Shown: piece after piece, positions 1-55,100 of the stretch
Numbering within the stretch: position 1 is the stretch's first letter
Layout: each line of letters starts with the position of its first letter
Source of the DNA: a virus
DNA: 64,000 nucleotides
IMG/VR virus record: IMGVR_UViG_2667527373_000007
Span: 2,547 to 66,546 of that record
Direction: 5' to 3' (one strand)
The notes under the pieces: model-generated
Database searches by the model: none
What the model was told of the DNA's origin: nothing
The model's input: the letters and a program-made list of their open reading frames with translations, nothing else
Position numbers and translations under genes: made by a program

Positions 1-314
1 TCATAATCAACGGTGAATGCTGTAGGGTTATTTGCGTTTGAATGATTAGCAGATTGTCGCTTATCATTAAAATGTAATAGTAAGATACCATAATGAATTA
101 TCTTTATGATATCCTTACGTGCTGATCCTTTACGATCATATCGTGATGCATATTTTAACACATTGCTTCTGCAAAATGCTTCTGCATCCCCTACTGAATC
201 AATGAGGTCAAGAGTCTGAACGTTGCCGACAGAATAATGACCTCTATAAGTTTGTCCAATATAATCTTGGATCTCCTTTAGGAGTTCATCTTCATTATAC
301 TTCACGGATTCCAT
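1..314 (-). CDS. DUF3310-like hypothetical protein (3' end runs off window)
   Basis: Manual translation from ATG at 314: MESVKYNEDELLKEIQDYIGQTYRGHYSVGNVQTLDLIDSVGDAEAFCRSNVLKYASRYDRKGSARKDIIKIIHYGILLLHF...; the HY...D.I...AFC..N.LKY..R..RKG...D..K..HY pattern is typical of DUF3310-like phage proteins; no stop before the window edge, so absent from the ORF track. Confidence 0.7.
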   Translation of the reverse strand, partial: MESVKYNEDELLKEIQDYIGQTYRGHYSVGNVQTLDLIDSVGDAEAFCRSNVLKYASRYDRKGSARKDIIKIIHYGILLLHFNDKRQSANHSNANNPTAFTVDY

Positions 315-481
315 ACGTATTGTATCTTATCATGATAACACTCTATTGGATTTCCGTCAAGGTCCAATAAACGAATTTTATGTAAAGGACTAGAGGGAGT
401 TCCTACTCCCTCTAAAATTCTACCAGACCTACCATCAGTAAGAGTAGCGTAATGTCCTAGATAACCATTCTTACTCGTCAT
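302..481 (-). CDS. small hypothetical protein (59 aa)
   Basis: Manual translation MTSKNGYLGHYATLTDGRSGRILEGVGTPSSPLHKIRLLDLDGNPIECYHDKIQYVWNP; fills the gap exactly and overlaps both neighbours by a few codons. Confidence 0.6.
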   Translation of the reverse strand: MTSKNGYLGHYATLTDGRSGRILEGVGTPSSPLHKIRLLDLDGNPIECYHDKIQYVWNP

Positions 482-38705: not shown

Positions 38706-38713
38706 TATTTATA
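38706..38713 (-). promoter_or_regulatory. T4 late promoter TATAAATA heading the oxygenase cassette
   Basis: Exact consensus overlapping the fibre stop; a second GATAAATA at 38693-38700. Confidence 0.7.
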
Positions 38714-41700
38714 ATATAGTCCAGTTACCACCGTTATCTACAGTGACAGTAACGCCACTTGTGATTTCGATAGGTCCAAATGAGAATGCGTTGGTGTTAT
38801 TTGGAACCGTTGCATTAGCACTGATTGAATCTCTATTAGATTTGATAACACCATAGTCATCCAACCATTGCTTATCCCCATTTGCTTCTAGTTGACCAGT
38901 AACATGAATGTTACCTTCAACTTCCAATGCTTCTACTGGATCTCTATCTGTTGAGAAGTTAATACCAACAAGAGATTGTCTGTAGATGTCATTATCATTA
39001 GGAGATTTAGTCCATCTTGATGTGACGAATTCAGCATTATTCTGGAAGAGTTGACCATTTAAGTTAACATCACCCTGAATATTTAACTGATAATCTCTGT
39101 TTACATTTGGTGATACAGTTGTATCTGTTCCAGAGAATACATTTGTGTTAATAGCAACTCTTCTGTTAGTACCTTGAACAGCAACAGCAGGAGTATTCTG
39201 CCATGTAACATTACCATTAGCAGTAGATGGAGTGATTTCAAATACATCGTTCCATCCAATCTGGTTACCAATTCTGAAGTTCCTTGCAGAAGAAGCACCC
39301 TTGAAGTAGATAGGAGCACCAGAGTTATCATTAGCAGAGTCAATACTCCAACTACCCTGAACCATACCAGAACCATTAACGTCTAGTTTATAACCAGAAG
39401 TTGCTGCTCTACCTATTCCAACATTACCACTAGAATTGACATGTAAAGAAGCAGAAGGAGCTTCTCCACTAAAGGAGTACATAACCTTAGACCAAGCACG
39501 GTCTACGATTTCAAACTTAGTATTGGATGCAGAATCACCACCAAGTTGTATAGTTAATGTACCATCTTCTCTATCTGCTGCACGACCAATCCATGCTTCA
39601 CCAGCGTTTGTCTGACTCTGTGAGAATGTACCAATTCTTATTGAACCACGTACATCCAACTTAACATTAGATGCTGGTGATGAAGTACCAATACCAACAT
39701 TGTTCTGTGAAACATCAACGAATAATGTACCAGAATCTACATTAACATCATCAGTTAATGTTGTTGTACCAGTAACAGAAAGGTTATTAGAAACTGATAA
39801 GTTAGAACCAGCACCAGTAATGTTTAGCGAACCAGTCATGGTATCGCCAGTCTTCAATACGTTGAGTGAAGATGCACCAATAATAGATGCTGTAATAGTA
39901 CCAGCAGAGAAGTTACCAGAAGCATCTCTCTTAACAGCAGTACTTGCAATGTTTGCTGACTGGAAGGTAATATTACCTGCGTTCCATGCTGTGTTACCAT
40001 TGATTGATAAACCATCAGCATTAACAACCTGAATATCTAATGTACCAGATCCATCAGTTGCGTTACCACCTTGTGCTATAAGAGCAACGTTATAGTTAGA
40101 TGCTGCACTAGCAGAAGACTTGAAGTAAATGGATGGAGAAGTTGCCTGACCATCTGATCTACCTAAGTTTAGTAAAGCTTGTCCACCATTATGATAAAGT
40201 TTTGCTACCTCATAAGTATTAGCATCTTGGATAGTAAAGTCATGGAATGTAACTCTCTGACTTGCAGTACCAATTGTTTCAGCACCAATAAAGTTACCAG
40301 AAGTTAATCTACCAATAAGTATTGTGTAATCATTAAAGTTATCACTAACATCATCATTGATTGAGATGTTATCAATCGTGAAACTACCAACTGCCTGTGC
40401 GTTAGCATTGTAAAGGTTAACTGGGTTACCTGGAATCCAAGGAGATGTATTTAATATTAATCCAGAAACATAGATCTCATACTTAGGATCTCCTAAGAAT
40501 GACTTAACTGTAGTTGAATTATTGAATACTGTTGGACTTAAGAATCTAGGTAATCTATTATCAGAAATAGTACCAAAGTTGATGTTAAGAGCATTCTGAT
40601 ACCAAGTACCTTGCTTGTTATCAAATCTATCAGCATCAAGTCCTGAATCTACACCATCGTTAAGTGATGTCCAGACCTTACCCCATGATCCCCAAGTTGT
40701 AACACCTGTTCCAGAACCACGCAACCACATGTTGTCGTTGTCTGTGAATGCAAGTTGTCTTACACCACCAAATGTAGCATCAAAACCAGAACCACCATTT
40801 CTTAAAGTTAGAACTAGGTTTCTAGTACCACCATCAGTAAGACTGTTAGCACTATTGAATATAGTGTTAGCGATAGCACCTTCAACGAAGTTGTTTGGAG
40901 CAGGGTTTGATGTAGGGTTGTTAGTACCAGTTAGTAGTCTGATAGTGTTCTGAGACTGACCAGAAATACTAATGTTATATGTACCAGATAATCTATCAGT
41001 AGGTAATGTACCAGCATTCTGGTTACCAGAGTTTAGATAGAATGAACCTTGAGCACCGTCTAAAAGGTCAGCGTCAAGTCCGCTATCAGGTCCAGTCTTC
41101 AGTTCGACAGAACCATTTCCTGCTATACCAATATTAAATTGTGCCTTCTTATATCTCGAAACACCAATGGTTCCATAGAGGTCAGAAGAAATTGTCTGAT
41201 CTGTTACACGCTTAACGTCCATAGCAACGTTAGCATACTGTCTAATAACAGTACTTACTTTCGCTTCTAGGACTAAGTTAGATCCAGTTCCAATTTCAGA
41301 TGGAGCAACTGTAATAGAGAAGTCAGCGTTATATCCACTACCAGCATCAACAACAGTTACTTCTGTTACTGCGTTACCAGATACAACTATATTGACCTTA
41401 AGATCAGTTCCTGTACCACCTGATAATGCAACACCAAAGTATTGACCATTGGTATATCCAGAACCACCATTAGATATGATAACGTCATCAATGAAGTTAC
41501 CTTGCGTGTAAGTTGACTCAAAGGTCATTGGAGACTCACCACGCTCAAACTCCAGAATAGTTCCAGCAACTATATTCTGAGTAACTGGATTATTAATAGA
41601 GACTGTAGTTAATCCACCAGCAGTGACAACACCTGTAATATTTGTGTTTGGATCAATTCCAGTATTGGTCTCATTAACTGTATGACCAACCAAAGCATTC

Positions 41701-44700
41701 TGGTTTGTCTGGAATATTAACTGGTTAGTACCTGTACTTGCCTGTGAATATAACTGAGCAAAGTATCTGTTCTCAGCACCTTTGAGTGATTGAACTGCAA
41801 GTGAGAAGTTCTGGTCACCACGTAAGAAGGTGAAGGAGTTAGCAGCACCACCTGATGCCAATCTATCTGTTTCAATAACACCAGATGTGATGTCAGAAGC
41901 AGCAATTTGGTTGGTAGATAGTGATACCCAGTTGTTAGCAACAGTAGCAGATGTGTTTACAACACGATTGATATTAACTGTTGTAGCAGTTGGTGTTGTA
42001 CTATCATCAAATGTATCAGTATCTTCAATCTTAAGTTTGTTAACAATGTCACCGTACAATCTACTTTCAATTAAACCAACACCCTGTGCTTGTGTTCCAG
42101 CTCCTGGAGGTGCAGCGAATGTGATTGTTGGAGCAGTGGTGTAAAGTTTACCACCTTTAAATCCGTTAAATTCTTCAATAGTAACAGTAACAACCTGTCC
42201 ATTAGCAACAGTACATGTTGCAGCAGCTTGAACTGCACCAGCTTCAGGGTTACCACCAGTAATTGTTACTGTTGGTGCAACTGTGTATCCAGAACCAGAG
42301 TTAGTAATATTAATCTGATAGAGAACACCTTTTCTATATTCAGTAGACTGAATCTGACCATTAGATATGCTACCAGTAAAGATATCACCGATAGTAAATG
42401 CTAATGAAGCATTAGGTGTAAATCCTAAGTATAGACTTGTTAAGTCATTGTTCAAGATGAAGGACTGTGAACTATCCTGCTGAATCGCAATGTCACCAGC
42501 AAGTGCTCCTTCTAGATCTAATCTTGATGCTTGATCAGGAACAGTGTAAACACTGAATGGTCTCAAAGCAGGAATCTGGTCAACAGATATCTTACCTGAG
42601 TCTGTCAATTCAACCAGTGCTCTTGGAACAGCGTTAGTTGAATAAGGCTTGTTTATGTATGGACCTAAGTTGTTTGTAATGTAGTCTCTAACTGCCTTCT
42701 GAGTTGGTAGTTTGGAGTCAGATGCATTAGATCCACCTAATGTATTAGAGTCGTCGAATCCAGTAACAACAACGTCACCACCTTTCAGTTTCAAGAATTC
42801 AACTTCAGAAATTGTAACAGTACCAGTGAAAGTAATGTTACCAGTTCTGTTCTCAATTCTAGCGAATGTACCAACCTTGAAGTCTCCTAGTTCGTCAGTA
42901 CCAGAAACGTAAACTCGTCCATAGTTCTCAGAGACCTGTTCATTTGCTTCAATCTTAGTACCACCGTTCTCAGGTAGAGCAAGGTAGTTAGTACCAGATC
43001 CAGCATATTCCCACGTATGAGATGAGGAGTTAACAATAGATGGTCTATGTAATCTTAATGTTTGACTTAATAATGCACTTGTTGCAACTGCATTACCAGT
43101 AGCATCATCAATCATGCTCATTCCACCACCAGTACCATCATCAATGGTTAACTGAGCAGAGAAAGGAGGACCAACGGTGACTGCTGCAACAGAATCAACG
43201 AAGTATTCTATACCATCTACAGCATTACTATATCCATCAATCTTCAAGACATAGTGCTCTAGTGGTTCTCTTCCTAATCCACTGACTGTAAGTATTGTTC
43301 TACCAGTAGGTGTGGAAGATACGTTAGTAATAGTACAAACATCAAATGTGTATGGTACTGCACTATATCCAACACCTCTAAGAGCGAACTGACCAAAGTT
43401 AGTAGCAGAGTTGGTAATAGAGATATATCCACCAGATGATGCTAAACAACCGTCTCCAGCAAAGATACAGAACACAGACACCAACTGTGCATATCCATCA
43501 TTGATTACGTTATATCCAGTACCACCAAATGTAACCATCGTGAATGCGTTTGCAACCATCGACTTACCTTGGTTCGGGAAGGATGCAGAACCATCAAGTT
43601 CTAATCCTGGGAATGGACAGTTAGGTTGCTTAACTTTTGCACCATCAACCAGAGCACCACTACCACCTAAGAATGAGATAACAGAAGAGTTCTGAGTATA
43701 TGGAGATGCCTCAATGATTGGATAGTCATCAAAGTCACCACGAATTGCAACTCTCTGATTATTAGCATCATAGATGTAACTATCAGGATATGTTGCTATT
43801 GTTGAAGTATCAAATAGAGTTCCATAAGTTTGTGTAGTATCACCAGAAGCTATTGTTTCGTCAAGGATATCCTCGAACAATGCCATCTCTGTAGTAATTG
43901 TAGATGCAACGTTAGCACAACGTGGAGTGGATCCAGTGTAAAGAGTAATGTTCCAATCTTCAAACTTAGGAATTGGTGAATCAGTTGTTACCTGATCGTA
44001 GATAACATAGCATCCATTTGCTTTAGCAGAATCAAATGCGTGTGTAGAAGCACTAGCACTACCAGCAGCACCTACATTAACTGTAACAATTGTATTACCA
44101 CCAGAAGTTGATACATTAGTGATTTCTAGTGATCTACCATATGCCTTCTTATCAGCAGGAACTCTTCTAGGATATGCGTGAGTAGAAGCACCACTATCAA
44201 CATCACATGTAAATGTTAATGCTTCTTCAGTAAATGCAAATCTATGAGATGTTGTAACTGCTGTAGTAGGAGTTGGGAATGTTACTGTAAGATCACCAGT
44301 GTTAGCAGTATATGTTGCAGTAGATGGTGTAACTACAGCAGGAAGTGTAGTACCTGCACTCCAGTTAGAAAGTGCATCTATAGAATAATCTCTAACCTTC
44401 TGATATGCATAGATGGTCTGAGCAAGCATTTTTGTTTCAATACCTGTCAACTGAGTTCCAGTGAAGTATTCTTCAGCAGCAGTTACAATACCTGTGTTAC
44501 CACCAAGTACAAGGTCACGAATAAGACCTGATAAAACAATATTAATATCTCTACGACACTTCCTTTCATCTACATCAGAAAGATTTGCTTCTGGGAATTG
44601 TACAAGAGTATCTCTTAATGCTTGGTCAGCAATAAGATGTCTGTTACGTGCGATTAGATATGCAGCATCAAGATAAGTATCAGCAGCATTATTTGAGATA

Positions 44701-47700
44701 ACATCTACGTATAATAATGAAAGAGTATCAATAGCAGCTCTTACATCATCACAAGCAGGAGTACCAGCAGTTGCAGTTCTTGTGGTTGGGTCAAAGTATC
44801 TTGCAACAGAAGAATGCTCTGGAACATACTGAAGATCTGTTGGTAATCTATTACCAGTTCTCCAGTTACACATAGCATATGTTGCTAATTCCTTCGCATA
44901 GAAGATACTACGAACTACCTGTGTTATTTCATAATCAATATATGTAATCTTGCCATCAACGATGAGTTTCTTACCTGCCTCAACGATGTTATGATTTGTT
45001 CCAAATTCTAAGTCTCTTACTAGAGCATTCAAGAAGTGTACAGTATCCTCACGGCATTGCTCATCACCATTTGCTCCACTAGCATCTGGAGAACTATATG
45101 CAGGATATGTCTTCTGACCTGATGCACAAGACATCAGAATATTTGCTAACTTGACAGTATCATCTTCAGCAATATTTGGAATAGCAGCTGAAACTGTTAT
45201 GGTTGCATCACCAGTTACAGCATTATCATATACAAAATCAGTAATGTTATATGAACTACCACCAAATTCTACTGTACCACCACTAACATACGTATGTACT
45301 TCAGGTGTTACACCAATATTTGCTTTGAATATACTACCACCAACAGATATAGCATTTGTTCCTGCTCTTACAAAAGTATGTGCAGATTGTGGAAGGTTCT
45401 TAACACAATTTGTAGCAGCAGATATGAATGAGTGTACAGATTGTGGTAAACACTTAACTGCCTCTGAAGTAGCACTTACAAATTCGTGTGTGTACTGACC
45501 ACCAATTACACATGCACCAGCAGTTGCAGATACAAATGTATGAGGATAGTCACCACCCACTATAATCGCTCCAGAAGACGCTGAAACGAAGTTATGAGGA
45601 TAATTACCTCCGCTAACTACAGCACCAGTTGCAGTGCCACCAGCCCATGTATGAGCATAGTTACCACCAGTTATCAATGCATCAACAGCAGCATTAATAA
45701 ATGTATGACCAGAAATATCAGATGAAGTACCAACATTCATCTTAATTGTGGTAGCAGTTACACCTGTAATTGTGACTGCTGTATTGTATGCAGGGTCAGG
45801 AGTACCAGCGTTAGCACCCTCACCAGATGAACGTGGATATGTCTTCTGAACAATATTACCATCAAGTCCACAAGTAAATGTTAATGAATTGTCAGCAAGT
45901 TTTACACTCTCTCCTGTTGTAAGACTGTGTTGACCAATTGTTAATTCTAATTCTCCATTAACAGGATTATAAGAAGCATTGGTTGGTGTGTACTTAAGTA
46001 AAGGAGTTGTTCCTACATTTACTGAGATTGTTGTTCCAGTTACTGCTGTAATAGGAATAGAAGTATCAGATACTGGGTCAGTTGATCTAGGATAAGTATG
46101 GTTTGAACCATTTCCATCCATAGCACAAGTAAATGTCAGTGCATTATCTGGAATCTTAATACTTTCACCTACTGTTAATGTATGAGATCCAATTGTCATC
46201 TCCATGACACCTGTTGCTGGATCGTATGTTGCGTTAGTAACGTTATGATTTACAAGAGGAGATGCACCTACATTAACTGTAATAACACCAGACTGATGCT
46301 TAAGACCACCTGTAGTCGCAGACTGGAATGAGTGTGTGTCTAGATTACTAGAAACACCAACGTTAACACTAAAACTATTAGCAGTTACGTTTGTAATTTC
46401 TAACCATTCAGCACTAGCAGGATCAGTAGGTCTTGGATATGTGTGATCACTACCATTAGCATCCTTAGCACAACGGAAAGTTAATGAATTATCATCAAAC
46501 TTAATTCTATTTGTATTCTGGAAACCGTGGTTTGTAATTGTAATAGCAAGGTTACCAGTTGAAGGAGTATATACTGCGTTCTCAACAGTGTGTGATGTAG
46601 ATCCTACATCAGTTACAGCAACAGAAGTACCGTATACTGGGTCAGTAGAACGTGGATATGTGTGGTTACTTTGGTTACCATTCATTCCACAAGTAAATGT
46701 TAGAGAATCATCAGCAATTCTAATAGATTCTCCTGTTACTATATTGTGATTACCAATGGTTAAAGTTAAATCTCCACTAGATGCAGTATATGTTGCATCA
46801 GTTGGTGTGTATTCTGAAAGTGGAGTAGCTCCAACATTAACTTGAATTGTTCCATCCTGTCTACTTATTCCATTAGCATTAGCAGATACAAATGTATGTG
46901 GAGAAGTATTAGAAGATGTACCAACGTTAACTTTGAAACTGTTTGTTGTTACATTAGAAATTGTTAACCACTCATCACCAGCAGGATCATTTAATCTTGG
47001 ATATGAGTGAGTAGATTGATCATTGTCTAGATCACAAGTAAATTGTAATGATTTCTCAGCAATTTTAATCTTGTCACCATTACTAAATCCGTGATTAGTA
47101 ACAGTTAAAATTAATTCACCATTATTAGGATTGTAATATGTACCACCTACTTGTATTGCACCTGTGGCAACACCACCGCCCCATGTATGAGCATAGTTAC
47201 CACCGCTAGTAATAGCATTAGTTGCAGTAAATCCAGGCTTCCATCTATGAGTTGAAGTATCTGGAGAAACACCAACATCCAAAGTAATTGATGTTGAGGT
47301 TACATTAGTAATAGTAACTGCTGTTTGATATGCAGGGTCAGATGAACGTGGATATGAGTGATCAGTTGCATACTGGTCTTTCTGACATTGGAATGTCAAT
47401 GATGCATCAGCAATTCTTACACTAGTACCAACAGCAAGACTGTGAGCACCAATGGTTAATGTCATAAGACCTGTTAGAGGGTCATATGCACCGTTTGTAG
47501 CAGTGTGTTGAGTATTTGATGTAGTTCCAACATCGAGAGTAATTGTAGTTGCTGTAGTCGCAGAAACTGTTAATTCCTGATCATATGCTGGATCTGTTGT
47601 TCTAGGATAAGTCTTAGTAGCAGTTTGACCATCCATTGCACATTTGAAGCCCAATGAATTCTGCTTTATTCTAACTTTACTAGCAGTTGTAAGACTATGA

Positions 47701-50700
47701 GTACCAATGGTAAGTTCCATAAGACCCGTTGCTGGATCGTATGTTGCATTACTTACGTCAAATGCTTGTTCTGGACCTGATGCAGTGTGCTGTGTTAATC
47801 CAATACCTACAATTGGAAGTGAAGTATCGTATGCTGGATCTGTTGGTCTTGGATAAGTATGTTGAGTAGCATTAGCATCTTGTTCGCAAGTAAATGTTAA
47901 TGCATTATTTGCTATCTTAATAGAATCACCAACTGATAAATTATGATCACCAATTGTTAGTGCTAATACACCAGATGAAGGAGTATATACTGCATTAGTA
48001 ATATCTTTGTTTACAATAGCAGTAGATCCTACATTAACTGTAATTGTACCAGTAGTTCTTATTATTCCATTTGCACTTGCAGAAACAAAATAATGTGTTG
48101 ATGTATTAGAAGAAATACCAACATTTAAAGTAAAATTGTTTGTTGTTACACCAGAAATCTCAATGAATCTGTCACTGATAGGATCATCCTCACGAGGATA
48201 TGTGTGTTGAGTAGCACGACTATCTAAATCACATTCAAATGTTAAACTTCCATCTACAATTTGAACAAAATCTCCATTGGAGAATCCATGATTATTACTG
48301 GTTATAACCAAAGTACCAGCAGCAGGATCATATGTAGCACCAGTTGCTGTCTTTGTTTCTGTTGTAATTGCTGTTACAGGAATTGATGTACCAGCAGAAG
48401 GGTCAGTTCCTGGTCTTGGATATGTATGTACAGAAGCATAATCATCCTGTTCGCAACGGAATGATAATGCATTATCAGACATTATAATATCTTGTCCAAC
48501 ACGAAGACCATGTTGTCCGATAACAAGATCTAAATTACCATTTACAGGATTATAAGTTGCATCAGATGGTGTCCATGTCTTATCTGGACCAGCAGCACCT
48601 ACGTTAACTGTAATAGAGTTAGCATCAGCACCAGTAATTGCAATTGACTTACCAGCAGCCATGTCTTGGAAATCAGTTCCACCGCCAGGACGAGGATAGA
48701 ATTTAGTCTCTTGATTACCATCCATTGTGCAACTAAAGCCCAATGAATTGTCGTCTATAACAACATTATCACCAACTTTAAGTGTATGAGATGGAATTGT
48801 TAAAATTAAGTTACCAGTTGCAGGATCATAACTTGCATTTGTTGGAGTCCACTGACTATCTGCTCCAGCAGCACCTACATTAACTGTAAATGTATCTGTT
48901 GTTGTGCTTGTAATAGGAATTGCTTTACCAGCAGCAGGATCAGATGCTTTTGGATAGTAATGCTCTGTAGCATTAGAATCCATAGCACAAGTAAATGTTA
49001 GAGATCCAGTTCCAATTCTTACACCAGCACCTGTTGATAATCCATGAGCTGCTTTTGTAATAACTAAATCACCAGTGGCAGGATCATATGTAGCACCAGT
49101 TGGTGTTATTGCTGACGCTGCTGATCCAGCAATATTAAAGATTGAATAGTAATCTTTAGCAAATTGTGCTCCAATCTTACCTAAAACTTCATCTGCAATG
49201 AAATCTCTGTTATTCTTAATGTAATTTGCAGCATCTTGGAAACGTCTGCTAACAGATGTTGTTAATGGGAAACTGTTAGGAGAGTTAAGTAATGATAGAT
49301 ATACAACTCTTGAAGCATTTTTAACTACAGCAAACTGACCTGGATCGAAGTTTGCATCTGTAAGAGCAGGATCTTTCTTAGGAATAACAAATCGTCTGCA
49401 ACGACCATCTGCATCCTCTATAACTTTATAAATTCTTTGCTTACCATTCAAGAATGATAAGTCTGGTGTACTAGTTGGAAGACCTGATATTTCTACTTCT
49501 TGACCTTCTTTAAACTCATGAGTATTAGTTCTACCAACAAGAGCACTTGTGTAGAATACAATACCTCCTACATCTTCAGCATTACCATACTGAGGACTCT
49601 GATAACCACCAGTTGCTATGGAAGGATCTCCCTGTAGAGAGAAGTCAATTCTAGAAATAGGTAGAGTAGAAATGAAATCTTCGTCTACCTCAGTAACTTC
49701 ACCCTCTGCTCTAATTGACTTAATCTTAGTTGTGTCAATGGTTTCAATGTTTGGTGTGGCAGCAAACATTTGAATAGTAGCAGCATTGTTACTATTCCAA
49801 GTTGGAGCATTAAGTGATTTTAATGGTTGGAATGTTACATCCCAATAAGTAGGAGCATTATCTGTATCAATTCCAACTACCTGATAGAAACCTTCTGTAA
49901 ATTCTTGATCATTTGTATCATCAAGTTTTACATATGTACCAGCAGGAATTACAGAAGAAGGATCAGCAGTAAATTTTAATATATTTTGACCATTAGTTCC
50001 TTCAATGGTTGCAGAAATTTGAGAACCTGCACCAGCAGATGTGATATATTCAAATCGTTCACCCTCAACAAAAGAACCACTAGTTAGATTAACATCAATC
50101 GTACCATTAATATATGCGTTAGCACCAGTAGTAGTATCAAATACAACATCAAATATATCTGCTCTAGCACCAGTGTTTAGACCAACAACTTCTAACGATG
50201 AAACAAGATTAGATAAACCAGTGTTTTGTTGGAAATTAACACGGAATTGATCTGGACCAAAGACCTGTGTACCAACTTTAAAGTCAACACCAGCATCTCC
50301 ATTGACATCAGGATCGAGGATAATACGTTGCTTATCGTCAAAGACCATCGCGTAATCCCAAGTAGCAACAGCGTCACCATTGGAGTCAATTTGGTCTCTG
50401 AATGTTACACCTAAGACGTAGTTCTTATCACCGAACTTGAATATATGTTTACCTGGGTTTGCAGGACGTACAATAACCAAACGTAAGTTGTCACCAACAA
50501 CTGATGCATCAGGTGGAATGGATATTGGGTTGTCTTCTACATAATCTCCACCAGAAACAACAATAGTTTCTTTAACACCAGGAGTTTTCCATGCCTCTTG
50601 ACATGCTTTTTTAATAGTTCTTACAGGGTTTACCGCAGATCGACCATCGTTAAGGTCAGAACCAATCTGTTGTGAAACGTAAATACGACCACCAACGTCA

Positions 50701-51569
50701 TTCGTTGCTAGGTTAAGGACGTATTCTGTAGTAGCAATCTTGTCTGATCTGTCACCTAGTAGAGGTGTAATGGATCTTGGATATATTCCAGCATCTCCAG
50801 TAACATTATATCCAAATCTTTCACTATCAACTGCATGGAAACCAATATGCTTAAACTGAACTTCACCATTCAGTACAATACCATCAACGTGTGTTGGAGC
50901 TTCAGATCCAGTTTGACCTGAATTTAATGACTGGTATAAATTAGCACCAAAATATCTGTATGCATCCTTCTGAAGGATGACATTAGGAGCCCAAGGAGTA
51001 CCAGTATTATTCTGATATGTCTTTAAATTTGGTGCTCTGAAGTTAGCATCAGGAGTAACAAAGTTATCAATATCAAGGTTAAGGATTCTTGCAGTATCAG
51101 AGATGATAGAAGTTGATGTTCTAATAGCACCAGAAACGTCAAGTTCGTAATCAACGGTGTCAAGAACAGCTTCGGCAGTTGCACCAGATCCACCACCACC
51201 TTCAATTGTAACTAGAGGAGCAGTTGAATATCCTAAGCCTGGGTTGTTAACGGCGATAGTAACAACTTGACCATTGAATATAAAGGCAGATGCTTGAGCT
51301 TGTACACCACCAGCAGGAGGAGCTTCTATAGTAACAGTAGGCTGAACAGTAAACCCTGAACCACCATTGGTGATATCAATATTGTTTATTCTCTGTCCAG
51401 TTCTGTTAATACCAACACGAGGTAATCCTGTGTTAGTATCTAATTCTGTACGTATTATCTCTCTTTCTAGAGCACCCGTACCAACTCTTATGGTTGCTTC
51501 TGTATCACCGATAAGAGAGGGTTTAGAACCTCTAATCCTTTCCTTATCAGAATTGATGTTAAAACTCAT
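38709..51569 (-). CDS. giant tail fibre / adhesin (4286 aa)
   Basis: NSGxGY beta modules, pectin-lyase-like beta-helix motifs, helical DLxxGxN repeats, about 14 YDPxTG...HxYPR repeats, fibre-type NADLLDG-like and VGIGT repeats near the C-terminus. Confidence 0.85.
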   Translation of the reverse strand: MSFNINSDKERIRGSKPSLIGDTEATIRVGTGALEREIIRTELDTNTGLPRVGINRTGQRINNIDITNGGSGFTVQPTVTIEAPPAGGVQAQASAFIFNGQVVTIAVNNPGLGYSTAPLVTIEGGGGSGATAEAVLDTVDYELDVSGAIRTSTSIISDTARILNLDIDNFVTPDANFRAPNLKTYQNNTGTPWAPNVILQKDAYRYFGANLYQSLNSGQTGSEAPTHVDGIVLNGEVQFKHIGFHAVDSERFGYNVTGDAGIYPRSITPLLGDRSDKIATTEYVLNLATNDVGGRIYVSQQIGSDLNDGRSAVNPVRTIKKACQEAWKTPGVKETIVVSGGDYVEDNPISIPPDASVVGDNLRLVIVRPANPGKHIFKFGDKNYVLGVTFRDQIDSNGDAVATWDYAMVFDDKQRIILDPDVNGDAGVDFKVGTQVFGPDQFRVNFQQNTGLSNLVSSLEVVGLNTGARADIFDVVFDTTTGANAYINGTIDVNLTSGSFVEGERFEYITSAGAGSQISATIEGTNGQNILKFTADPSSVIPAGTYVKLDDTNDQEFTEGFYQVVGIDTDNAPTYWDVTFQPLKSLNAPTWNSNNAATIQMFAATPNIETIDTTKIKSIRAEGEVTEVDEDFISTLPISRIDFSLQGDPSIATGGYQSPQYGNAEDVGGIVFYTSALVGRTNTHEFKEGQEVEISGLPTSTPDLSFLNGKQRIYKVIEDADGRCRRFVIPKKDPALTDANFDPGQFAVVKNASRVVYLSLLNSPNSFPLTTSVSRRFQDAANYIKNNRDFIADEVLGKIGAQFAKDYYSIFNIAGSAASAITPTGATYDPATGDLVITKAAHGLSTGAGVRIGTGSLTFTCAMDSNATEHYYPKASDPAAGKAIPITSTTTDTFTVNVGAAGADSQWTPTNASYDPATGNLILTIPSHTLKVGDNVVIDDNSLGFSCTMDGNQETKFYPRPGGGTDFQDMAAGKSIAITGADANSITVNVGAAGPDKTWTPSDATYNPVNGNLDLVIGQHGLRVGQDIIMSDNALSFRCEQDDYASVHTYPRPGTDPSAGTSIPVTAITTETKTATGATYDPAAGTLVITSNNHGFSNGDFVQIVDGSLTFECDLDSRATQHTYPREDDPISDRFIEISGVTTNNFTLNVGISSNTSTHYFVSASANGIIRTTGTITVNVGSTAIVNKDITNAVYTPSSGVLALTIGDHNLSVGDSIKIANNALTFTCEQDANATQHTYPRPTDPAYDTSLPIVGIGLTQHTASGPEQAFDVSNATYDPATGLMELTIGTHSLTTASKVRIKQNSLGFKCAMDGQTATKTYPRTTDPAYDQELTVSATTATTITLDVGTTSNTQHTATNGAYDPLTGLMTLTIGAHSLAVGTSVRIADASLTFQCQKDQYATDHSYPRSSDPAYQTAVTITNVTSTSITLDVGVSPDTSTHRWKPGFTATNAITSGGNYAHTWGGGVATGAIQVGGTYYNPNNGELILTVTNHGFSNGDKIKIAEKSLQFTCDLDNDQSTHSYPRLNDPAGDEWLTISNVTTNSFKVNVGTSSNTSPHTFVSANANGISRQDGTIQVNVGATPLSEYTPTDATYTASSGDLTLTIGNHNIVTGESIRIADDSLTFTCGMNGNQSNHTYPRSTDPVYGTSVAVTDVGSTSHTVENAVYTPSTGNLAITITNHGFQNTNRIKFDDNSLTFRCAKDANGSDHTYPRPTDPASAEWLEITNVTANSFSVNVGVSSNLDTHSFQSATTGGLKHQSGVITVNVGASPLVNHNVTNATYDPATGVMEMTIGSHTLTVGESIKIPDNALTFTCAMDGNGSNHTYPRSTDPVSDTSIPITAVTGTTISVNVGTTPLLKYTPTNASYNPVNGELELTIGQHSLTTGESVKLADNSLTFTCGLDGNIVQKTYPRSSGEGANAGTPDPAYNTAVTITGVTATTIKMNVGTSSDISGHTFINAAVDALITGGNYAHTWAGGTATGAVVSGGNYPHNFVSASSGAIIVGGDYPHTFVSATAGACVIGGQYTHEFVSATSEAVKCLPQSVHSFISAATNCVKNLPQSAHTFVRAGTNAISVGGSIFKANIGVTPEVHTYVSGGTVEFGGSSYNITDFVYDNAVTGDATITVSAAIPNIAEDDTVKLANILMSCASGQKTYPAYSSPDASGANGDEQCREDTVHFLNALVRDLEFGTNHNIVEAGKKLIVDGKITYIDYEITQVVRSIFYAKELATYAMCNWRTGNRLPTDLQYVPEHSSVARYFDPTTRTATAGTPACDDVRAAIDTLSLLYVDVISNNAADTYLDAAYLIARNRHLIADQALRDTLVQFPEANLSDVDERKCRRDINIVLSGLIRDLVLGGNTGIVTAAEEYFTGTQLTGIETKMLAQTIYAYQKVRDYSIDALSNWSAGTTLPAVVTPSTATYTANTGDLTVTFPTPTTAVTTSHRFAFTEEALTFTCDVDSGASTHAYPRRVPADKKAYGRSLEITNVSTSGGNTIVTVNVGAAGSASASTHAFDSAKANGCYVIYDQVTTDSPIPKFEDWNITLYTGSTPRCANVASTITTEMALFEDILDETIASGDTTQTYGTLFDTSTIATYPDSYIYDANNQRVAIRGDFDDYPIIEASPYTQNSSVISFLGGSGALVDGAKVKQPNCPFPGLELDGSASFPNQGKSMVANAFTMVTFGGTGYNVINDGYAQLVSVFCIFAGDGCLASSGGYISITNSATNFGQFALRGVGYSAVPYTFDVCTITNVSSTPTGRTILTVSGLGREPLEHYVLKIDGYSNAVDGIEYFVDSVAAVTVGPPFSAQLTIDDGTGGGMSMIDDATGNAVATSALLSQTLRLHRPSIVNSSSHTWEYAGSGTNYLALPENGGTKIEANEQVSENYGRVYVSGTDELGDFKVGTFARIENRTGNITFTGTVTISEVEFLKLKGGDVVVTGFDDSNTLGGSNASDSKLPTQKAVRDYITNNLGPYINKPYSTNAVPRALVELTDSGKISVDQIPALRPFSVYTVPDQASRLDLEGALAGDIAIQQDSSQSFILNNDLTSLYLGFTPNASLAFTIGDIFTGSISNGQIQSTEYRKGVLYQINITNSGSGYTVAPTVTITGGNPEAGAVQAAATCTVANGQVVTVTIEEFNGFKGGKLYTTAPTITFAAPPGAGTQAQGVGLIESRLYGDIVNKLKIEDTDTFDDSTTPTATTVNINRVVNTSATVANNWVSLSTNQIAASDITSGVIETDRLASGGAANSFTFLRGDQNFSLAVQSLKGAENRYFAQLYSQASTGTNQLIFQTNQNALVGHTVNETNTGIDPNTNITGVVTAGGLTTVSINNPVTQNIVAGTILEFERGESPMTFESTYTQGNFIDDVIISNGGSGYTNGQYFGVALSGGTGTDLKVNIVVSGNAVTEVTVVDAGSGYNADFSITVAPSEIGTGSNLVLEAKVSTVIRQYANVAMDVKRVTDQTISSDLYGTIGVSRYKKAQFNIGIAGNGSVELKTGPDSGLDADLLDGAQGSFYLNSGNQNAGTLPTDRLSGTYNISISGQSQNTIRLLTGTNNPTSNPAPNNFVEGAIANTIFNSANSLTDGGTRNLVLTLRNGGSGFDATFGGVRQLAFTDNDNMWLRGSGTGVTTWGSWGKVWTSLNDGVDSGLDADRFDNKQGTWYQNALNINFGTISDNRLPRFLSPTVFNNSTTVKSFLGDPKYEIYVSGLILNTSPWIPGNPVNLYNANAQAVGSFTIDNISINDDVSDNFNDYTILIGRLTSGNFIGAETIGTASQRVTFHDFTIQDANTYEVAKLYHNGGQALLNLGRSDGQATSPSIYFKSSASAASNYNVALIAQGGNATDGSGTLDIQVVNADGLSINGNTAWNAGNITFQSANIASTAVKRDASGNFSAGTITASIIGASSLNVLKTGDTMTGSLNITGAGSNLSVSNNLSVTGTTTLTDDVNVDSGTLFVDVSQNNVGIGTSSPASNVKLDVRGSIRIGTFSQSQTNAGEAWIGRAADREDGTLTIQLGGDSASNTKFEIVDRAWSKVMYSFSGEAPSASLHVNSSGNVGIGRAATSGYKLDVNGSGMVQGSWSIDSANDNSGAPIYFKGASSARNFRIGNQIGWNDVFEITPSTANGNVTWQNTPAVAVQGTNRRVAINTNVFSGTDTTVSPNVNRDYQLNIQGDVNLNGQLFQNNAEFVTSRWTKSPNDNDIYRQSLVGINFSTDRDPVEALEVEGNIHVTGQLEANGDKQWLDDYGVIKSNRDSISANATVPNNTNAFSFGPIEITSGVTVTVDNGGNWTIL
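45100..49150 (-). repeat. nested array of 13 approx. 90-aa repeat modules inside the giant fibre
   Basis: Consensus TPTxATYDPxTGxLxLTIxxHxL..G..V.I...SLTFxC..D....HxYPR..DP...I...TITVNVG...HxFxSA; the closing strands are displaced. Confidence 0.8.
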
Positions 51570-52120: not shown

Positions 52121-55100
52121 TTATTTCTTAGTAATATTTGATACGATAGTCACCTTAACGGTATGAGTCGCTAGGACATTAGCTCCTAATGTCATATTTA
52201 GTCTAACCTCATTGTTAGATGTCATTTCAAATTCTGGTACAATCAATTCAATTCCAGTTCTTAGATTTCCATATTCGTTGTATACAACATTCACTCCATC
52301 ATCTATAACACCAAACTCATACATTTCTTTATGTGCATTTGATACGTTCTCTGCTACGACAACAACCTTAGCACCTTTCTCAGTTGAAGTTGGATAAATG
52401 ACTGAGTTACCACTGTTAGATGAACCCTTAACCATAGTAACAACATCAGTTAATATCCTAAGATCAGCAAGTTCAAACTCTTTAAGATCGCTATCAAAGA
52501 CCTTAACTCCACTATATGTTCCTGTACCAAATCCTGTGTTTAGATATACATCACCTTGATCATCTAATCTTAAAATAGGATCTGTATAAACACCAGATGA
52601 TACACCTAGATCAAAGTATTGCTTAGAACTATGAAGGAATGTCTTAGTAGCAGATGTGTTGTCAAGAGTTGTTGCAGCACCATCAAATGTGAATAGAGAT
52701 GCAGTGATCTCAAATTCATCAGTAGTACTAGAAACAATAGTATCAACTGAATAAAACTCAAATGCTGACTGAGTTAATCTCAATGCATTATTACCAGCAG
52801 TATAGAAGTATAAAGTATCTTCATCACCACCAGCAGTTAATTCAGGAACAATATAAGTATCTTGGTCAACGTCTTTAACACCACCCAATGATCCCCAGTT
52901 CAATCCATCAAATCCTTCATATTGAAGTGTGGATGAGTTATATCTGATAGAACCTCTTTCAGCAACACCTCTTTGAGCAGTGTTACCAGATGGAACTACT
53001 AATGATGTAGCAGCATCAATCTTAACTTTTTTACCAGAGTTAGGTCTAATATTTAAGTCACTAACATCAGTTGAAATCTCATTACCAAGGAATCTTAGAT
53101 CTCCACTAATAACAAGTGGACATGTCTTATTAGGACCAACTCTAAGTTCTTGAATATCATCAAATGTTAATGGAGCAACACCCAATCCCCAGAATGTTAA
53201 TTCCGCAGTACCATTAGCAAGAGCACCAGATGTGTGTATTGGTTCATTACCAGTAGTAGCAGTAGTACCAGGAATAGTTACTTCATATAAATTGTTTAAC
53301 CACTTAACATATTGTCCTGCTGTTACAGGTGCGTTAGCATTCCACTCTGTATACGCAGGTGCAAGTACGTTTACAGAACGTACCTTCTTCATGTTTACAA
53401 ACTCAAGGAAGTTAGGACTTACCTTAAGTGTATTAACGTTATCGTTAAAGAACCAGATAGTGTTATCGTTAGCACCAACTGTCTCTTCTGCCAACATGTA
53501 GGTGTTTCCATCTAAGTCTCTTACACCACCTAGAGATGACCATGATGTTGTACTAGAATGATAACCTTCGTACTGATTAGATGTAGTATTAAATCTAATC
53601 ACACCATCCTTCGTAACAGCAGGGCCAGGTCTGGATGCTGTATCACCAGCAGGAACTGCGAAACCAGATAATGCATCTACACCAGCAATTCTTCCTTGCT
53701 CTGGTTTAAGAGTAATATCCTTAGCATTGAAAGAAGTTATTGTAGCATCATCACCAGTAATCTTAAGATTATCGCCAGCTCTAATATCATCAGATTTTAA
53801 ATAACCACCAGTAGCAACTGTTAAGTTACCAGTAGCACCCTCAATCTGTATTGTTGGTACAAATGGAGTACCAGATCCAACTTTAAAGAATTGAGTTGTT
53901 ACTTCAACGTCCTTATCTGCATCAGTCTGAATACCTAATTTTGTACCAGTAATAGCACCAGCAGTAGCAGGAGCTTTTAATAATGGAGTTTCTAATGATG
54001 CACTAGCAATAGCAACAGTAGAAGTTAGATTAGGAATAGTAGCATTACCAATTTCACCATCAGTTGAAACAAGATTTCTAACAGTGAATGATCCATCAAG
54101 AACTTCACCCTTAATAATTTCTTCTATAACAACATCATTAACAAGTAACTGGAATCCAGTACCAAATGTCTTAGGGTTATTTTGATCAATGGTAATTGCT
54201 GATTCTTGACCATCTTCACCACCTTCATTAGTATGGTCAATACTATCAGTAGCACAATAGTAATAAAGTGTTGGAGTATCTTCAGTTACTTTAATACTTA
54301 AAGCTTCAGATCCAGCAGCACTAACTCTCGTTACACCATCAGTATACTCAGCACCAAAAACATTAAATTCAACTGCACCACCAACTGTAGGCAATTTGTC
54401 AATAGTAAACTGAGTTGCACTATCAACACTTACAATCTTTGTATCAGCAGCAAATGTACCTGCTCCTTGGTCAGCAAGATCTTTCTCTACAACAAACCCT
54501 ACTTTATATCCAGTTGTAGAACCAACTGTAATTTGAGTTGCTGTTGATGCTAATGTTGCTGTCTGACCTTCTACTCTATCCCATCTTCCATCTGGAAATG
54601 AACTTAGAGAGAATATATGACCACCAAGTGTAGCACTATTTAAATCAAATTTATATTCATTACCAACAAACAATGTTAATGCTGGAACAAATTGATCAAC
54701 ACCATTTCCAGTATCAATAGTAAATCTAAAGTCATCAGCAGAACTTTGTACCTCATATGCCGTAGTACCAGCAGCATCATTAACAAAGAATCCACCAGCA
54801 TTAAGACCAAAGTAGTCGATGACCATATATGTGATCCATCCACCAGCTGCTACAATCTTACGCACAGCAGTACCAGTACCAGCAGAACTTACACTACCAA
54901 CTGCTAATACAATATTATCAGCAGGAGAAGCACCACCAACTAAAGTTCCATCAATAGTTACTACTTCTGTATCTACATAAAATCTTCCTTCATCTCCAGT
55001 AGTTATAGTTACTGATAAAACAGCACCTGTATTATCACGAGTAACATCAAATTTTGCACCAACACCAGATCCAGCAGATGTTGAAGCAACTCCACTGTAT

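What the first reader, a model, noticed from the sequence alone, without database searches (positions are those of the whole stretch)
45100..49150. Russian-doll tail fibre: 13 repeat domains encoded as exactly balanced nested insertions, forming a branched polypeptide tree
Seen in sequence: the ~90-aa module (opening ...ATYDPxTG...HxYPR..DP, then TITVNVG, then a closing strand HxF/WxSA..xI) is not arranged head-to-tail. New copies start inside the previous one, before its closing strand. Parsing like brackets gives D1(~49106)[D2(~48848)[D3(~48572){D4}[D5(~48000){D8{D6[D7]}}[D9(~46808){D10}[D11(~46240)[D12(~45989)]]]]]]]. Six domains (D1, D2, D3, D5, D9, D11) are still open when D12 closes. Exactly six orphan closing strands follow in a row at ~45336-45670: GGNYAHTWAGG.., GGNYPHNFVSA.., GGDYPHTFVSA.., GGQYTHEFVSA.., LPQSVHSFISA.., LPQSAHTFVRA... 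DNA identity supports the pairing independently. D6 and D11 share a 20-nt identical opener (47728-47747 = 46213-46232), and the closers assigned to them share 25 identical nt (47180-47204 = 45644-45668). The whole stack appears to sit in a circularly permuted copy (D0: YSIFNI...SIFKANIG..HTYVSGG..YNITDFVYD...KTYP). Inference: the chain runs out through each domain and returns through it. That gives a double-stranded stalk about 8 domains deep with side branches (D4, D8-D6-D7, D10), which could be mechanically very stable and able to display several receptor-binding tips. I know of no description of such depth-first, tree-like domain encoding in a phage fibre, but I could not search the literature.
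Basis: partly seen in the sequence, partly recalled or inferred. Interest (0 to 1): 0.9.

Follow-up and report, generated by a model that had tools for sequence, protein, structure and literature searches.

The report
Self-nested barrel domains in cyanophage fibre
A 4,286-residue tail-fibre-type protein of a T4-like cyanophage most likely builds a branched side arm from 12 copies of one small beta-barrel domain, inserted one inside another up to seven deep, so that six "missing" last strands follow in reverse order at the end; domain insertion is known, but this depth of self-nesting has not been described in the literature I could search.

Summary
The core observation is real. Residues 822-2078 of one 4,286-aa ORF (window 38709-51569, minus strand) hold 12 openers, 12 VNVG strands and 12 His-x-Phe closers. 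Their order fits the grammar D = O{D*}V[D*]C exactly: D1[D2[D3{D4}[D5{D6[D7] D8}[D9{D10}[D11[D12]]]]]].

Six closers trail at 45336-45671, and the cited exact DNA repeats exist. Two details fail:
- D8 is a sibling of D6, not its host.
- The permuted "D0" has only 2-5 bits of HMM support.

Nesting is supported by several lines of evidence:
- A full-domain profile stops at the predicted break points in the seven open domains.
- Orthologues with 4, 8-9 and 12-13 domains at the same site have 3, 5 and 7 closers in a row.
- One orthologue has an extra whole domain inside D9.
- An AlphaFold2 model of a homologous 4-domain unit (pLDDT 93.6, pTM 0.84) has nested ranges 1-420, 87-398, 173-382 and 247-354 that each match a single solved barrel.
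- Covariation mostly agrees.

There is one caveat. The window's own D9-D12 model, with a shallow alignment over the closers, modelled them as a beta-solenoid at low confidence (pLDDT 40-65).

The function as a receptor-binding tree is untested. I rate it a new variant of known split-domain architecture. The scan noted a similar fibre in another genome (e1-5339551, unchecked).

The parts
38709..51569 (-). Giant ORF, 4286 aa (P0001), tail-fibre-type virion protein of a T4-like cyanophage
   Evidence: PHROG 5342 'tail fiber protein'. The syntenic S-RIM44 gp170 'tail fiber protein' is followed by tail-fibre assembly genes.
48855..49106 (-). D1 opener + VNVG strand (res 822-905); closer displaced (site B open)
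   Evidence: The leaf profile stops at position 81 of 100.
48579..48854 (-). D2 opener + VNVG strand (res 906-997); site B open
48351..48578 (-). D3 opener (res 998-1073); site A open
   Evidence: The profile stops at position 73.
48060..48350 (-). D4, complete leaf barrel (res 1074-1170) inserted in D3
   Evidence: The profile is matched over positions 1-98.
48009..48059 (-). V3, the VNVG strand of D3 resuming after D4 (res 1171-1187)
47766..48008 (-). D5 opener (res 1188-1268); site A open
   Evidence: The profile stops at position 69.
47505..47765 (-). D6 opener + V strand (res 1269-1355); site B open
   Evidence: The profile stops at position 85.
47214..47504 (-). D7, complete leaf (res 1356-1452) inserted in D6
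47154..47213 (-). C6, single displaced closer that completes D6 (res 1453-1472)
   Evidence: It is colinear with C11 in the duplicated two-domain nest.
46863..47153 (-). D8, complete leaf (res 1473-1569), second guest in D5's site A
46809..46862 (-). V5, the VNVG strand of D5 (res 1570-1587)
46590..46808 (-). D9 opener (res 1588-1660); site A open
   Evidence: The profile stops at position 76. In P0003/L001 a whole extra domain is inserted here.
46299..46589 (-). D10, complete leaf (res 1661-1757) inserted in D9
   Evidence: AF2 of the window's own sequence gives block-mean pLDDT 83-95. Model range 70-173 (closer included) matches E1 FCCH at Z 8.2 and the phi92 endosialidase barrel at Z 8.1.
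46245..46298 (-). V9, the VNVG strand of D9 (res 1758-1775)
   Evidence: The long strands at model 62-73 and 169-179 have pLDDT >90.
45990..46244 (-). D11 opener + V strand (res 1776-1860); site B open
   Evidence: The profile stops at position 82.
45672..45989 (-). D12, innermost complete leaf (res 1861-1966)
45336..45671 (-). Six displaced closers in a row with an 18-residue period, assigned C11, C9, C5, C3, C2, C1 (res 1967-2078)
   Evidence: The number of closers tracks the number of open domains across orthologues. The window's own model is ambiguous here.
45090..45335 (-).
   Evidence: The HMM scores are only 2-5 bits. The flank is conserved in all orthologues.
44004..44330 (-). D13, isolated complete copy of the module (res 2414-2522), outside the stack

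Best explanation
Residues 822-2078 are 12 copies of one roughly 95-residue beta-barrel domain, encoded as recursive domain-in-domain insertions. A guest domain, or a whole balanced sub-nest, sits at a hairpin of its host. One site lies between the strand before VNVG and VNVG (site A, curly brackets). The other lies between VNVG and the last strand (site B, square brackets). Relatives also use a site after the first hairpin and a site just after YPR.

The host's remaining strands follow only after the guest is complete. The last strands of the six open domains D11, D9, D5, D3, D2 and D1 therefore queue up in reverse order, 18 residues apart.

The architecture is D1[D2[D3{D4}[D5{D6[D7] D8}[D9{D10}[D11[D12]]]]]]. 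Its main path is seven domains deep and it has five terminal barrels.

The first and last strands of D1 belong to one barrel, so the whole 1,257-residue stack enters and leaves the fibre at one point. It is a side arm, not an in-line segment (inferred).

The family grows and shrinks by copy-paste or loss of contiguous balanced units, as shown by the orthologue indels and by the D6[D7] / D11[D12] duplication.

What the arm does is not shown. Display of several binding barrels on a stiff arm carried by two chain segments is the most likely role, and this is inference.
For: Sequence parse and profile:
- The token order parses perfectly, and reversed-sequence controls are clean.
- A 100-position profile of complete domains matches 13 places, all in this ORF. 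Six matches run to positions 97-99. D1, D2, D6 and D11 stop at 81-85. D3, D5 and D9 stop at 69-76.

Orthologues at the same site:
- P0079 has 4 domains and 3 trailing closers.
- P0041 and P0038 have 8-9 domains and 5 closers in a row.
- P0001 and P0003 have 12-13 domains and 7 in a row.
- The two outermost closers and the downstream flank are conserved in all of them.
- P0001 760-1126 aligns with P0079 760-1121, and P0001 2027-2200 with P0079 1186-1354. The extra ~850 residues lie in between.
- P0003 and L001 carry an extra complete domain inside D9's opener, with the flanks preserved and the same trailing count.

Wider family:
- The commonest architecture among relatives is a balanced 4-domain nest with exactly 3 trailing closers (90 units).
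- Closers outnumber openers in only 2 of 206 stacks.
- A divergent relative that looked unbalanced by HMM parses as balanced by eye.

Structure and covariation:
- AF2 of a 4-domain unit, 53.6% identical to the window's D1-D4, gives pLDDT 93.6 and pTM 0.84, with closers at 89-98.
- Single solved barrels align to nested model ranges 1..418-420, 87..398, 173..382 and 247..354.
- mfDCA couples each closer block best with its assigned opener for 4 of 5 blocks, and MI links the last closer to the first opener.
- BFVD models of cyanophage fragments share the arrangement, with TM 0.64-0.66.
Against: - AF2 of the window's own residues 1588-2085 did not dock any trailing closer. Residues 361-498 have pLDDT 40-65, and residues ~366-498 match beta-solenoids (TibA Z 10.7, pentapeptide-repeat proteins, Ag43).
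- The closers have an exact 18-residue period with GG turns, which is solenoid-like.
- Opener-versus-closer similarity across the 12 domains is not significantly correlated (Mantel p 0.2; 0.09 for the displaced ones).
- No model coordinates were available. The nested topology of the good model is read from aligned ranges, not from contacts.
- All structural evidence is prediction.
- The fibre may be a trimer, and closure in trans is not excluded.
Confidence: 0.85

Rival explanations
1. The trailing 18-residue repeats are not parts of the barrels. They form their own short beta-solenoid (six or seven coils) that caps or spaces the array, and the 'open' modules are stable six-strand barrels.
For: In the AF2 model of the window's own segment, residues ~366-498 form a solenoid (TibA Z 10.7 with 119 aligned; many beta-helix proteins at Z 7-9), while the openers keep pLDDT 80-95. 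The repeats have an exact 54-nt / 18-aa period with GG turns.
Against: - That part of the model has pLDDT 40-65 and rests on two near-identical alignment rows.
- D12's own contiguous closer also has pLDDT only 40-46 in that model, although the same strand is inside the barrel in D10 and in the homologous unit.
- The coil number tracks the number of open domains in orthologues: 3, 5, 5, 7, 7.
- Single closers occur exactly where the grammar needs them, for example C6 between D7 and D8.
- The closer motif, with its invariant His, is the last strand of every complete copy.
- The deep-alignment model docks the closers at pLDDT 89-98.
Confidence: 0.07
2. The displaced strands do complete the open barrels, but in trans. 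In a trimeric fibre each closer inserts into the barrel of a neighbouring chain, a strand swap that ties the three chains together.
For: Phage fibres are usually trimers with intertwined chains (general knowledge). Nothing here tests oligomeric state. Sequence balance and covariation fit cis and trans closure equally well.
Against: A monomer model closes all four barrels in cis with pTM 0.84. The short 18-residue spacing of closers matches the return path along one chain. Leaf domains close in cis by necessity.
Confidence: 0.05
3. The pattern is a by-product of repeat shuffling with no structural meaning: a mix of truncated and complete repeats plus a slippage-prone 54-nt tandem repeat.
For: There are many 18-25-nt exact repeats between modules, and the tandem 54-nt units are prone to slippage.
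Against: The balance is kept in orthologues 40-80% identical with different domain numbers. It is also kept in 90 four-domain units. The key residues of every piece are invariant, and the ORF is intact over 4,286 codons.
Confidence: 0.02

Closest known systems
Split domains that project ligand-binding domains in RTX adhesins (AhLap, MpIBP; PMC12077191, which cites Graham et al. 2024, Proteins 92:933)
   Same: Both are fibrillar surface proteins in which a small beta domain is interrupted by a whole guest domain. The guest buds sideways, and the chain then returns to finish the host. The guest's N and C termini are adjacent. Nesting up to three levels is described there (beta-roll > vWFA > insert).
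   Different: There the host and guest are different folds, and nesting is shallow and occasional. Here host and guest are the same domain family. Nesting is recursive to depth 7, with 12 copies and several insertion sites, and the returning strands form a regular 18-residue run. This is a phage virion protein, not a secreted adhesin.
E1 FCCH domain (PF16190) of ubiquitin-activating enzymes
   Same: This is the best fold match of the module. The homologous leaf scores Z 8.0-8.5 with 76-80 residues aligned at 2.6-2.8 A, and the window's own D10 scores Z 8.2. FCCH is itself an inserted domain.
   Different: There is no significant sequence relationship: 12.9-13.5 bits against a Pfam cut-off of 29.5. 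FCCH occurs as a single copy, has an unrelated function, and lacks the H/C/D/H invariant set.
Beta-barrel domain of phage endosialidases (K1F, NF, phi92; PDB 1V0E, 3JU4, 4HIZ)
   Same: It is a small barrel in a phage tail protein, inserted into another domain. Scores are Z 6.5-8.1 with rmsd 1.9-2.5 A over 74-84 residues.
   Different: It is a single insertion into a beta-propeller, not self-nested. No sequence match was found.
T4 gp37 long-tail-fibre tip (needle domain, PDB 2XGF; from my own knowledge, not tested here)
   Same: A fibre chain runs out to a tip and returns alongside itself. Histidines on the strands bind metal.
   Different: gp37 is an intertwined trimeric needle without globular nested domains. 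No homology was detected here.

Membership tests
Nested (discontinuous) domain insertion / split-domain architecture | The guest is a complete, contiguous copy of a domain | tested here: met
   Six copies (D4, D7, D8, D10, D12, D13) match the 100-position profile to positions 97-99. D10 folds as a full barrel including its closer.
Nested (discontinuous) domain insertion / split-domain architecture | The host profile breaks at a defined point and its remaining pieces occur after the guest | tested here: met
   Matches stop at profile positions 69-76 or 81-85. The missing VNVG and closer pieces are found downstream in the order the grammar requires.
Nested (discontinuous) domain insertion / split-domain architecture | Relatives with and without the guest are otherwise colinear | tested here: met
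   P0079 compared with P0001. P0003 and L001 have an extra domain in D9. The closer runs number 3, 5, 5, 7 and 7.
Nested (discontinuous) domain insertion / split-domain architecture | The separated host pieces form one fold in three dimensions | tested here: inconclusive
   This is met in the model of a homologous 4-domain unit, with nested ranges 1..420, 87..398 and 173..382 each matching one solved barrel. It is not resolved for the window's own trailing closers, which have pLDDT 40-65 and a solenoid-like shape. No experimental structure exists.
E1_FCCH (PF16190) | Pfam score at or above the gathering threshold | tested here: not met
   12.9 and 13.5 bits against a cut-off of 29.5. The likeness is at fold level only.
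Beta-solenoid (for the closer run) | Regular coil-length repeat | tested here: met
   The period is 18 residues with GG turns.
Beta-solenoid (for the closer run) | Confident solenoid structure independent of the barrels | tested here: inconclusive
   The solenoid is modelled only at pLDDT 40-65. The repeat number equals the number of open domains in five orthologues, which a free-standing solenoid does not explain.
Phage tail fibre protein | Homology and synteny with annotated fibre genes | tested here: met
   PHROG 5342 with E = 0. S-RIM44 gp170 'tail fiber protein' is flanked by virion structural and tail-fibre assembly genes. These are annotation-level names only.
Phage tail fibre protein | Presence in the virion as a (trimeric) fibre | not testable with these tools
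   Needs proteomics or cryo-EM of this phage.

The most novel reading that the evidence does not exclude
The module is a self-inserting building block that obeys a bracket grammar. Any balanced sub-nest can be copied into one of about four hairpins of any other copy. This lets cyanophages evolve rigid, branched, force-shielded antennae whose leaf barrels (five here) act as independent receptor-binding tips. Each returning strand would be locked into its barrel by a metal site made of the invariant His (first hairpin), Cys, Asp and the closer's His.
Probability: 0.2. Interest if true: 0.85.

Novelty: new variant of a known kind. Interest (0 to 1): 0.68.

Why it matters
If the nesting is real, this is by far the deepest homotypic domain-in-domain architecture I could find any trace of. 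It shows that a protein can be built as a tree rather than a string from one repeated module.

That bears on three things:
- how giant phage fibres evolve: whole balanced sub-nests move as units, so the number of tips can change in one step;
- how such proteins fold: the innermost domain must finish first, and each host closes after its guest;
- how domain finders and repeat finders misread such proteins: Pfam finds nothing here, and simple repeat counts look unbalanced.

For marine ecology, these fibres are candidates for host-range determinants of abundant Synechococcus and Prochlorococcus phages.

Tried and rejected
- **Mantel test:** opener similarity against assigned-closer similarity within the 12 domains was not significant (p 0.2, or 0.09 for the displaced ones). 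The nested assignment ranked 126th of 720.
- **Residue covariation:** within P0001, Met in strand 1 always pairs with Trp in the closer (3 of 3), but this does not hold generally in relatives.
- **Iterated opener HMM:** it grew to 353 positions and scrambled the token order. I went back to the original 53-position model.
- **Short V and C HMMs:** they miss divergent variants, so many distant relatives look unbalanced. Inspecting one of them by eye showed it is balanced.
- **First alignment for the window's own model (A3):** MAFFT put the c{d}-type rows on the wrong domains, so I discarded it. The replacement (A4) deliberately left the closers covered only by orthologues, and the closers then came out at low confidence.
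- **More orthologues for a deeper alignment:** the viral and metagenome scans gave only about three distinct sequences.
- **Sequence searches:** there are no Pfam hits for the whole protein, only sub-threshold hits for single modules, and no sequence relatives in the PDB.
- **D0 as a permuted module:** the HMM scores are 2-5 bits.
- **Foldseek of the 4-unit model against the PDB:** it returned only strings of FN3 domains, with TM 0.1-0.16.
- **Literature searches:** I found no description of nested cyanophage fibres.


Full report
**Setting**

The finding lies inside one intact open reading frame, window 38709-51569 on the minus strand, 4,286 codons. Residue r is encoded at window 51570-3r to 51572-3r.

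The neighbours are terminase, sheath, portal and several giant virion proteins. The core genes are about 77% identical in DNA to Synechococcus phages S-RSM4 and S-CAM4, which are T4-like cyanophages. The record is a 66.8-kb viral fragment.

The protein matches PHROG 5342 'tail fiber protein' and has no Pfam family. Its syntenic counterpart in S-RIM44 is gp170, 'tail fiber protein', followed by tail-fibre assembly genes.

**Checking the observation**

Regular expressions, and then three small HMMs built from the protein itself, find the following in residues 822-2078:
- 12 openers (from Y.P..G to H.YPR);
- 12 VNVG strands;
- 12 closers (H.F, mostly followed by V-S-A).

One further complete copy lies at residues 2414-2522. 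No other ORF of the window has any. On reversed sequences of 121 homologues the same thresholds give 0, 0 and 2 hits.

The order of the 36 tokens is O V O V O O V C V O O V O V C C O V C V O O V C V O V O V C C C C C C C. This parses without error under D = O{D*}V[D*]C, with depth 7. It gives D1[D2[D3{D4}[D5{D6[D7] D8}[D9{D10}[D11[D12]]]]]].

By my own count, only about 5 x 10^7 of 3.4 x 10^15 orderings of such tokens are valid. A random order is a weak null, though, because plain tandem repeats are also valid.

Both exact DNA repeats are there.

- D8 follows the closed D6[D7] pair inside D5, so it is their sibling.
- The proposed permuted copy D0 scores only 2-5 bits.

**An unbiased profile test**

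I aligned 21 complete copies of the module (A5) and searched the whole record with the 100-position profile. All 13 matches fall in this ORF.
- Six matches run to positions 97-99. These are the copies the parse calls leaves.
- D1, D2, D6 and D11 stop at positions 81-85, just before the closer.
- D3, D5 and D9 stop at positions 69-76, just before VNVG.

So the seven 'open' copies are cut at two fixed points, exactly where a new copy begins.

**Comparative evidence**

This is the strongest line of evidence.

*Orthologues at the same site.* Orthologues have different numbers of domains at the same site, starting near residue 820 and followed by the same conserved flank.
- P0079 has a plain four-domain nest with three trailing closers.
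- P0041 and P0038 have eight to nine domains and five closers in a row.
- P0001 and P0003 have twelve and thirteen domains and seven closers in a row, counting the innermost leaf's own.

In all of them the last two closers and the flank are conserved, and the additional closers sit on the inner side.

*Location of the extra sequence.* P0001 760-1126 aligns with P0079 760-1121 (52% identity), and P0001 2027-2200 aligns with P0079 1186-1354 (61%). The extra ~850 residues lie between D3's VNVG strand and D3's closer.

*A whole-domain insertion.* P0003 is 56% identical overall by BLASTP and 77-79% identical over the stack. Together with locus L001, it carries one more complete copy inserted inside D9's opener, after its first hairpin. 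D9's flanks are preserved and the trailing count is unchanged. This is a natural insertion of a whole domain into a third site.

*The wider family.*
- Among 121 homologues the commonest architecture is O V O V O O V C V C C C, that is a[b[c{d}]] with exactly three trailing closers. There are 90 such units.
- Closers exceed openers in only 2 of 206 stacks, and 83 stacks are exactly balanced.
- The surplus of openers in distant relatives comes from missed motif variants. P0019, counted as 27 openers and 15 closers, parses by eye as a balanced nest at least eight deep. It uses a fourth site just after YPR.

**Structure prediction for a homologous unit**

I folded a four-domain unit from locus L074, which is 53.6% identical to the window's D1-D4. 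The alignment held 53 natural units of the same architecture (A1).

AlphaFold2 gave mean pLDDT 93.6 and pTM 0.84. The three trailing closers scored 89-98, and each forms a six-residue strand plus a three-residue strand.

Each of these model ranges matches a single solved barrel of about 100 residues:

| Domain | Model range | Matching structures |
|---|---|---|
| d (leaf) | 247..354 | E1 FCCH, Z 8.0-8.5; phi92 endosialidase barrel, Z 7.9 |
| c | 173..382 | phage N4 tail protein 9lc0_I 240-334, Z 6.3, 83 aligned; SelB domain |
| b | 87..398 | flavohaemoglobin FAD barrel 4g1v 144-256, Z 4.3, 73 aligned |
| a | 1..418-420 | 6geh_A 9-121, Z 5.4, 89 aligned; 8ftm_B 1170-1269; MreC |

The ranges are nested, and each ends at the closer that the parse assigns. 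The Z scores for the split barrels are modest.

Two long strands (240-251 and 348-358) fit a two-stranded ribbon joining c and d.

BFVD holds independent models of cyanophage fragments that superpose at TM 0.64-0.66. ESM Atlas models match only partly.

**Covariation**

I used 101 distinct units (effective number 36). In mean-field DCA, the strongest couplings of the d closer, c's VNVG strand, the c closer and the b closer go to their assigned openers. The outermost closer is ambiguous in DCA, but in MI it accounts for 32 of the top 60 long-range pairs, all with the first opener. By my own binomial calculation, at least four of five blocks correct has a chance probability of about 0.016. The sample is small and the units are related, so this is supporting evidence only.

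**The window's own sequence**

I folded residues 1588-2085, which is the D9{D10}[D11[D12]] nest plus all seven trailing closers. The alignment (A4) gave 17-64 rows over the openers. Over the closers it had only two orthologue rows, so that closer placement would not be imposed.

The result was mean pLDDT 75.9 and pTM 0.41.
- The openers, D10 with its own closer, and D9's returning VNVG strand are confident (block means mostly 82-95).
- D10 (model 70-173) matches E1 FCCH at Z 8.2 and endosialidase barrels at Z 7.4-8.1, with rmsd 1.9-2.0 A.
- All of residues 361-498 have pLDDT 40-65, and residues ~366-498 are modelled as a beta-solenoid (TibA Z 10.7, pentapeptide-repeat proteins and others).

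I do not take it as such, for four reasons:
- Confidence is low, and the alignment carries no information there.
- D12's own contiguous closer also has pLDDT only 40-46 instead of being placed confidently in its barrel, contrary to every complete copy.
- A free solenoid does not explain why coil number equals the number of open domains in five orthologues.
- It also does not explain why a single closer sits between D7 and D8.

It does keep a rival alive, which I put at about 7%. Closure in trans within a trimer is a further possibility (about 5%).

**How it likely works and evolves**

Guests sit at hairpin tips, so the chain leaves and re-enters the host side by side. The guest's first and last strands are neighbours. 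This is the geometry that makes insertion compatible with folding, and it is described for the split domains of RTX adhesins (PMC12077191).

Folding must finish from the inside out. The stack begins and ends in the same barrel, so it is a side arm. My inference from general knowledge of host-guest proteins is that tension along the fibre would bypass the guests (see the GL5/I27 work, PMC5133956).

Growth is by copy-paste of balanced contiguous units. D6[D7] with its two closers (residues 1268-1476) is 52% identical and colinear over 215 residues with D11[D12] and its two closers (residues 1773-1990). Three exact DNA repeats lie at offsets 1515, 1536 and 1515.

Four residues are conserved in complete copies: a His in the first hairpin (nearly invariant), a Cys, an Asp three residues later, and the closer's His. 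The same residues are present in all 12 copies of the stack, except that D9 has Asn in place of Asp. A metal site that clasps the returning strand is an attractive but untested idea.

**Comparison and novelty**

Domain insertion and split domains are well known, and three-level nesting is described in an RTX adhesin (PMC12077191). The fold resembles the E1 FCCH and endosialidase barrels, both of which are inserted domains themselves. There is no sequence membership in either family.

Three things are unusual here:
- host and guest are the same module;
- nesting recurses to depth 7 with 12 copies and several sites;
- the leftover strands form a regular last-in-first-out run.

Five full-text searches found no description of this in cyanophage fibres. 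That does not prove there is none. The scan's own notes record a similar reading of a 3,787-aa fibre in another genome (e1-5339551, unchecked), and self-nested arrays in other giant proteins.

I class it as a new variant of a known kind. Confidence is 0.85 that the nesting is real. The proposed receptor-display function is unproven.

Noticed in passing
window 44004-44330 (res 2414-2522): An isolated complete 13th copy of the module lies about 340 residues downstream of the stack, beyond an alpha-helix-rich stretch. It has the same His/Cys/Asp/His residues.
   Followed up: partly
all 12 modules, e.g. D8 at window 46863-47153: The invariant or near-invariant residues are His (first hairpin), Cys (F-T-C), Asp (C+3; Asn in D9) and the closer's His. 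This may be a metal site that locks the returning strand. The geometry could not be checked without coordinates.
   Followed up: no
P0003 res ~1613-1722; L001 (aa ~895-1000 of frame 1): Orthologues carry an extra complete 'HGF'-type domain inserted after the first hairpin of D9. This is a third insertion site that the window's own protein does not use.
   Followed up: yes
P0019 res 572-1470: A divergent homologue is nested at least eight deep. It uses a fourth insertion site directly after YPR. The host's leftover strands are interleaved with the closers.
   Followed up: partly
homologues P0004, P0005, P0014, P0030, P0053 and others: Balanced four-domain nests occur as tandem arrays of 2-7 units per protein. 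They are separated by 43-residue linkers or by repeated helical modules of about 120 residues with a C-[RK]-R-D motif. The window's protein has similar helical sequence after residue ~2160.
   Followed up: no
homologues listed (e.g. P0009, P0028, P0029): The precomputed Pfam hits in several giant homologues include PF00502 (phycobilisome protein), PF13385 (laminin G-like) and PF14240 (YHYH). A phycobilisome-like domain in a cyanophage fibre would be odd.
   Followed up: no
window 55275-57330 (1839-aa ORF 52121-57640): Another first-reader note (e1-5326106) proposes a second, different nested-domain stack in the neighbouring virion protein. My module HMMs find no copy of the present module there.
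   Followed up: no
window 43400-50700: Another first-reader note (e1-5326107) reads the N-terminal and later parts of this protein as one beta-helix split by a ~2,200-residue insertion. That insertion would contain the whole stack.
   Followed up: no
BFVD entries A0A0E3EYG1_2, M4SQ89_5: Public predicted structures of cyanophage protein fragments already contain this multi-domain arrangement (TM 0.64-0.66 to my model), apparently without any published description.
   Followed up: no
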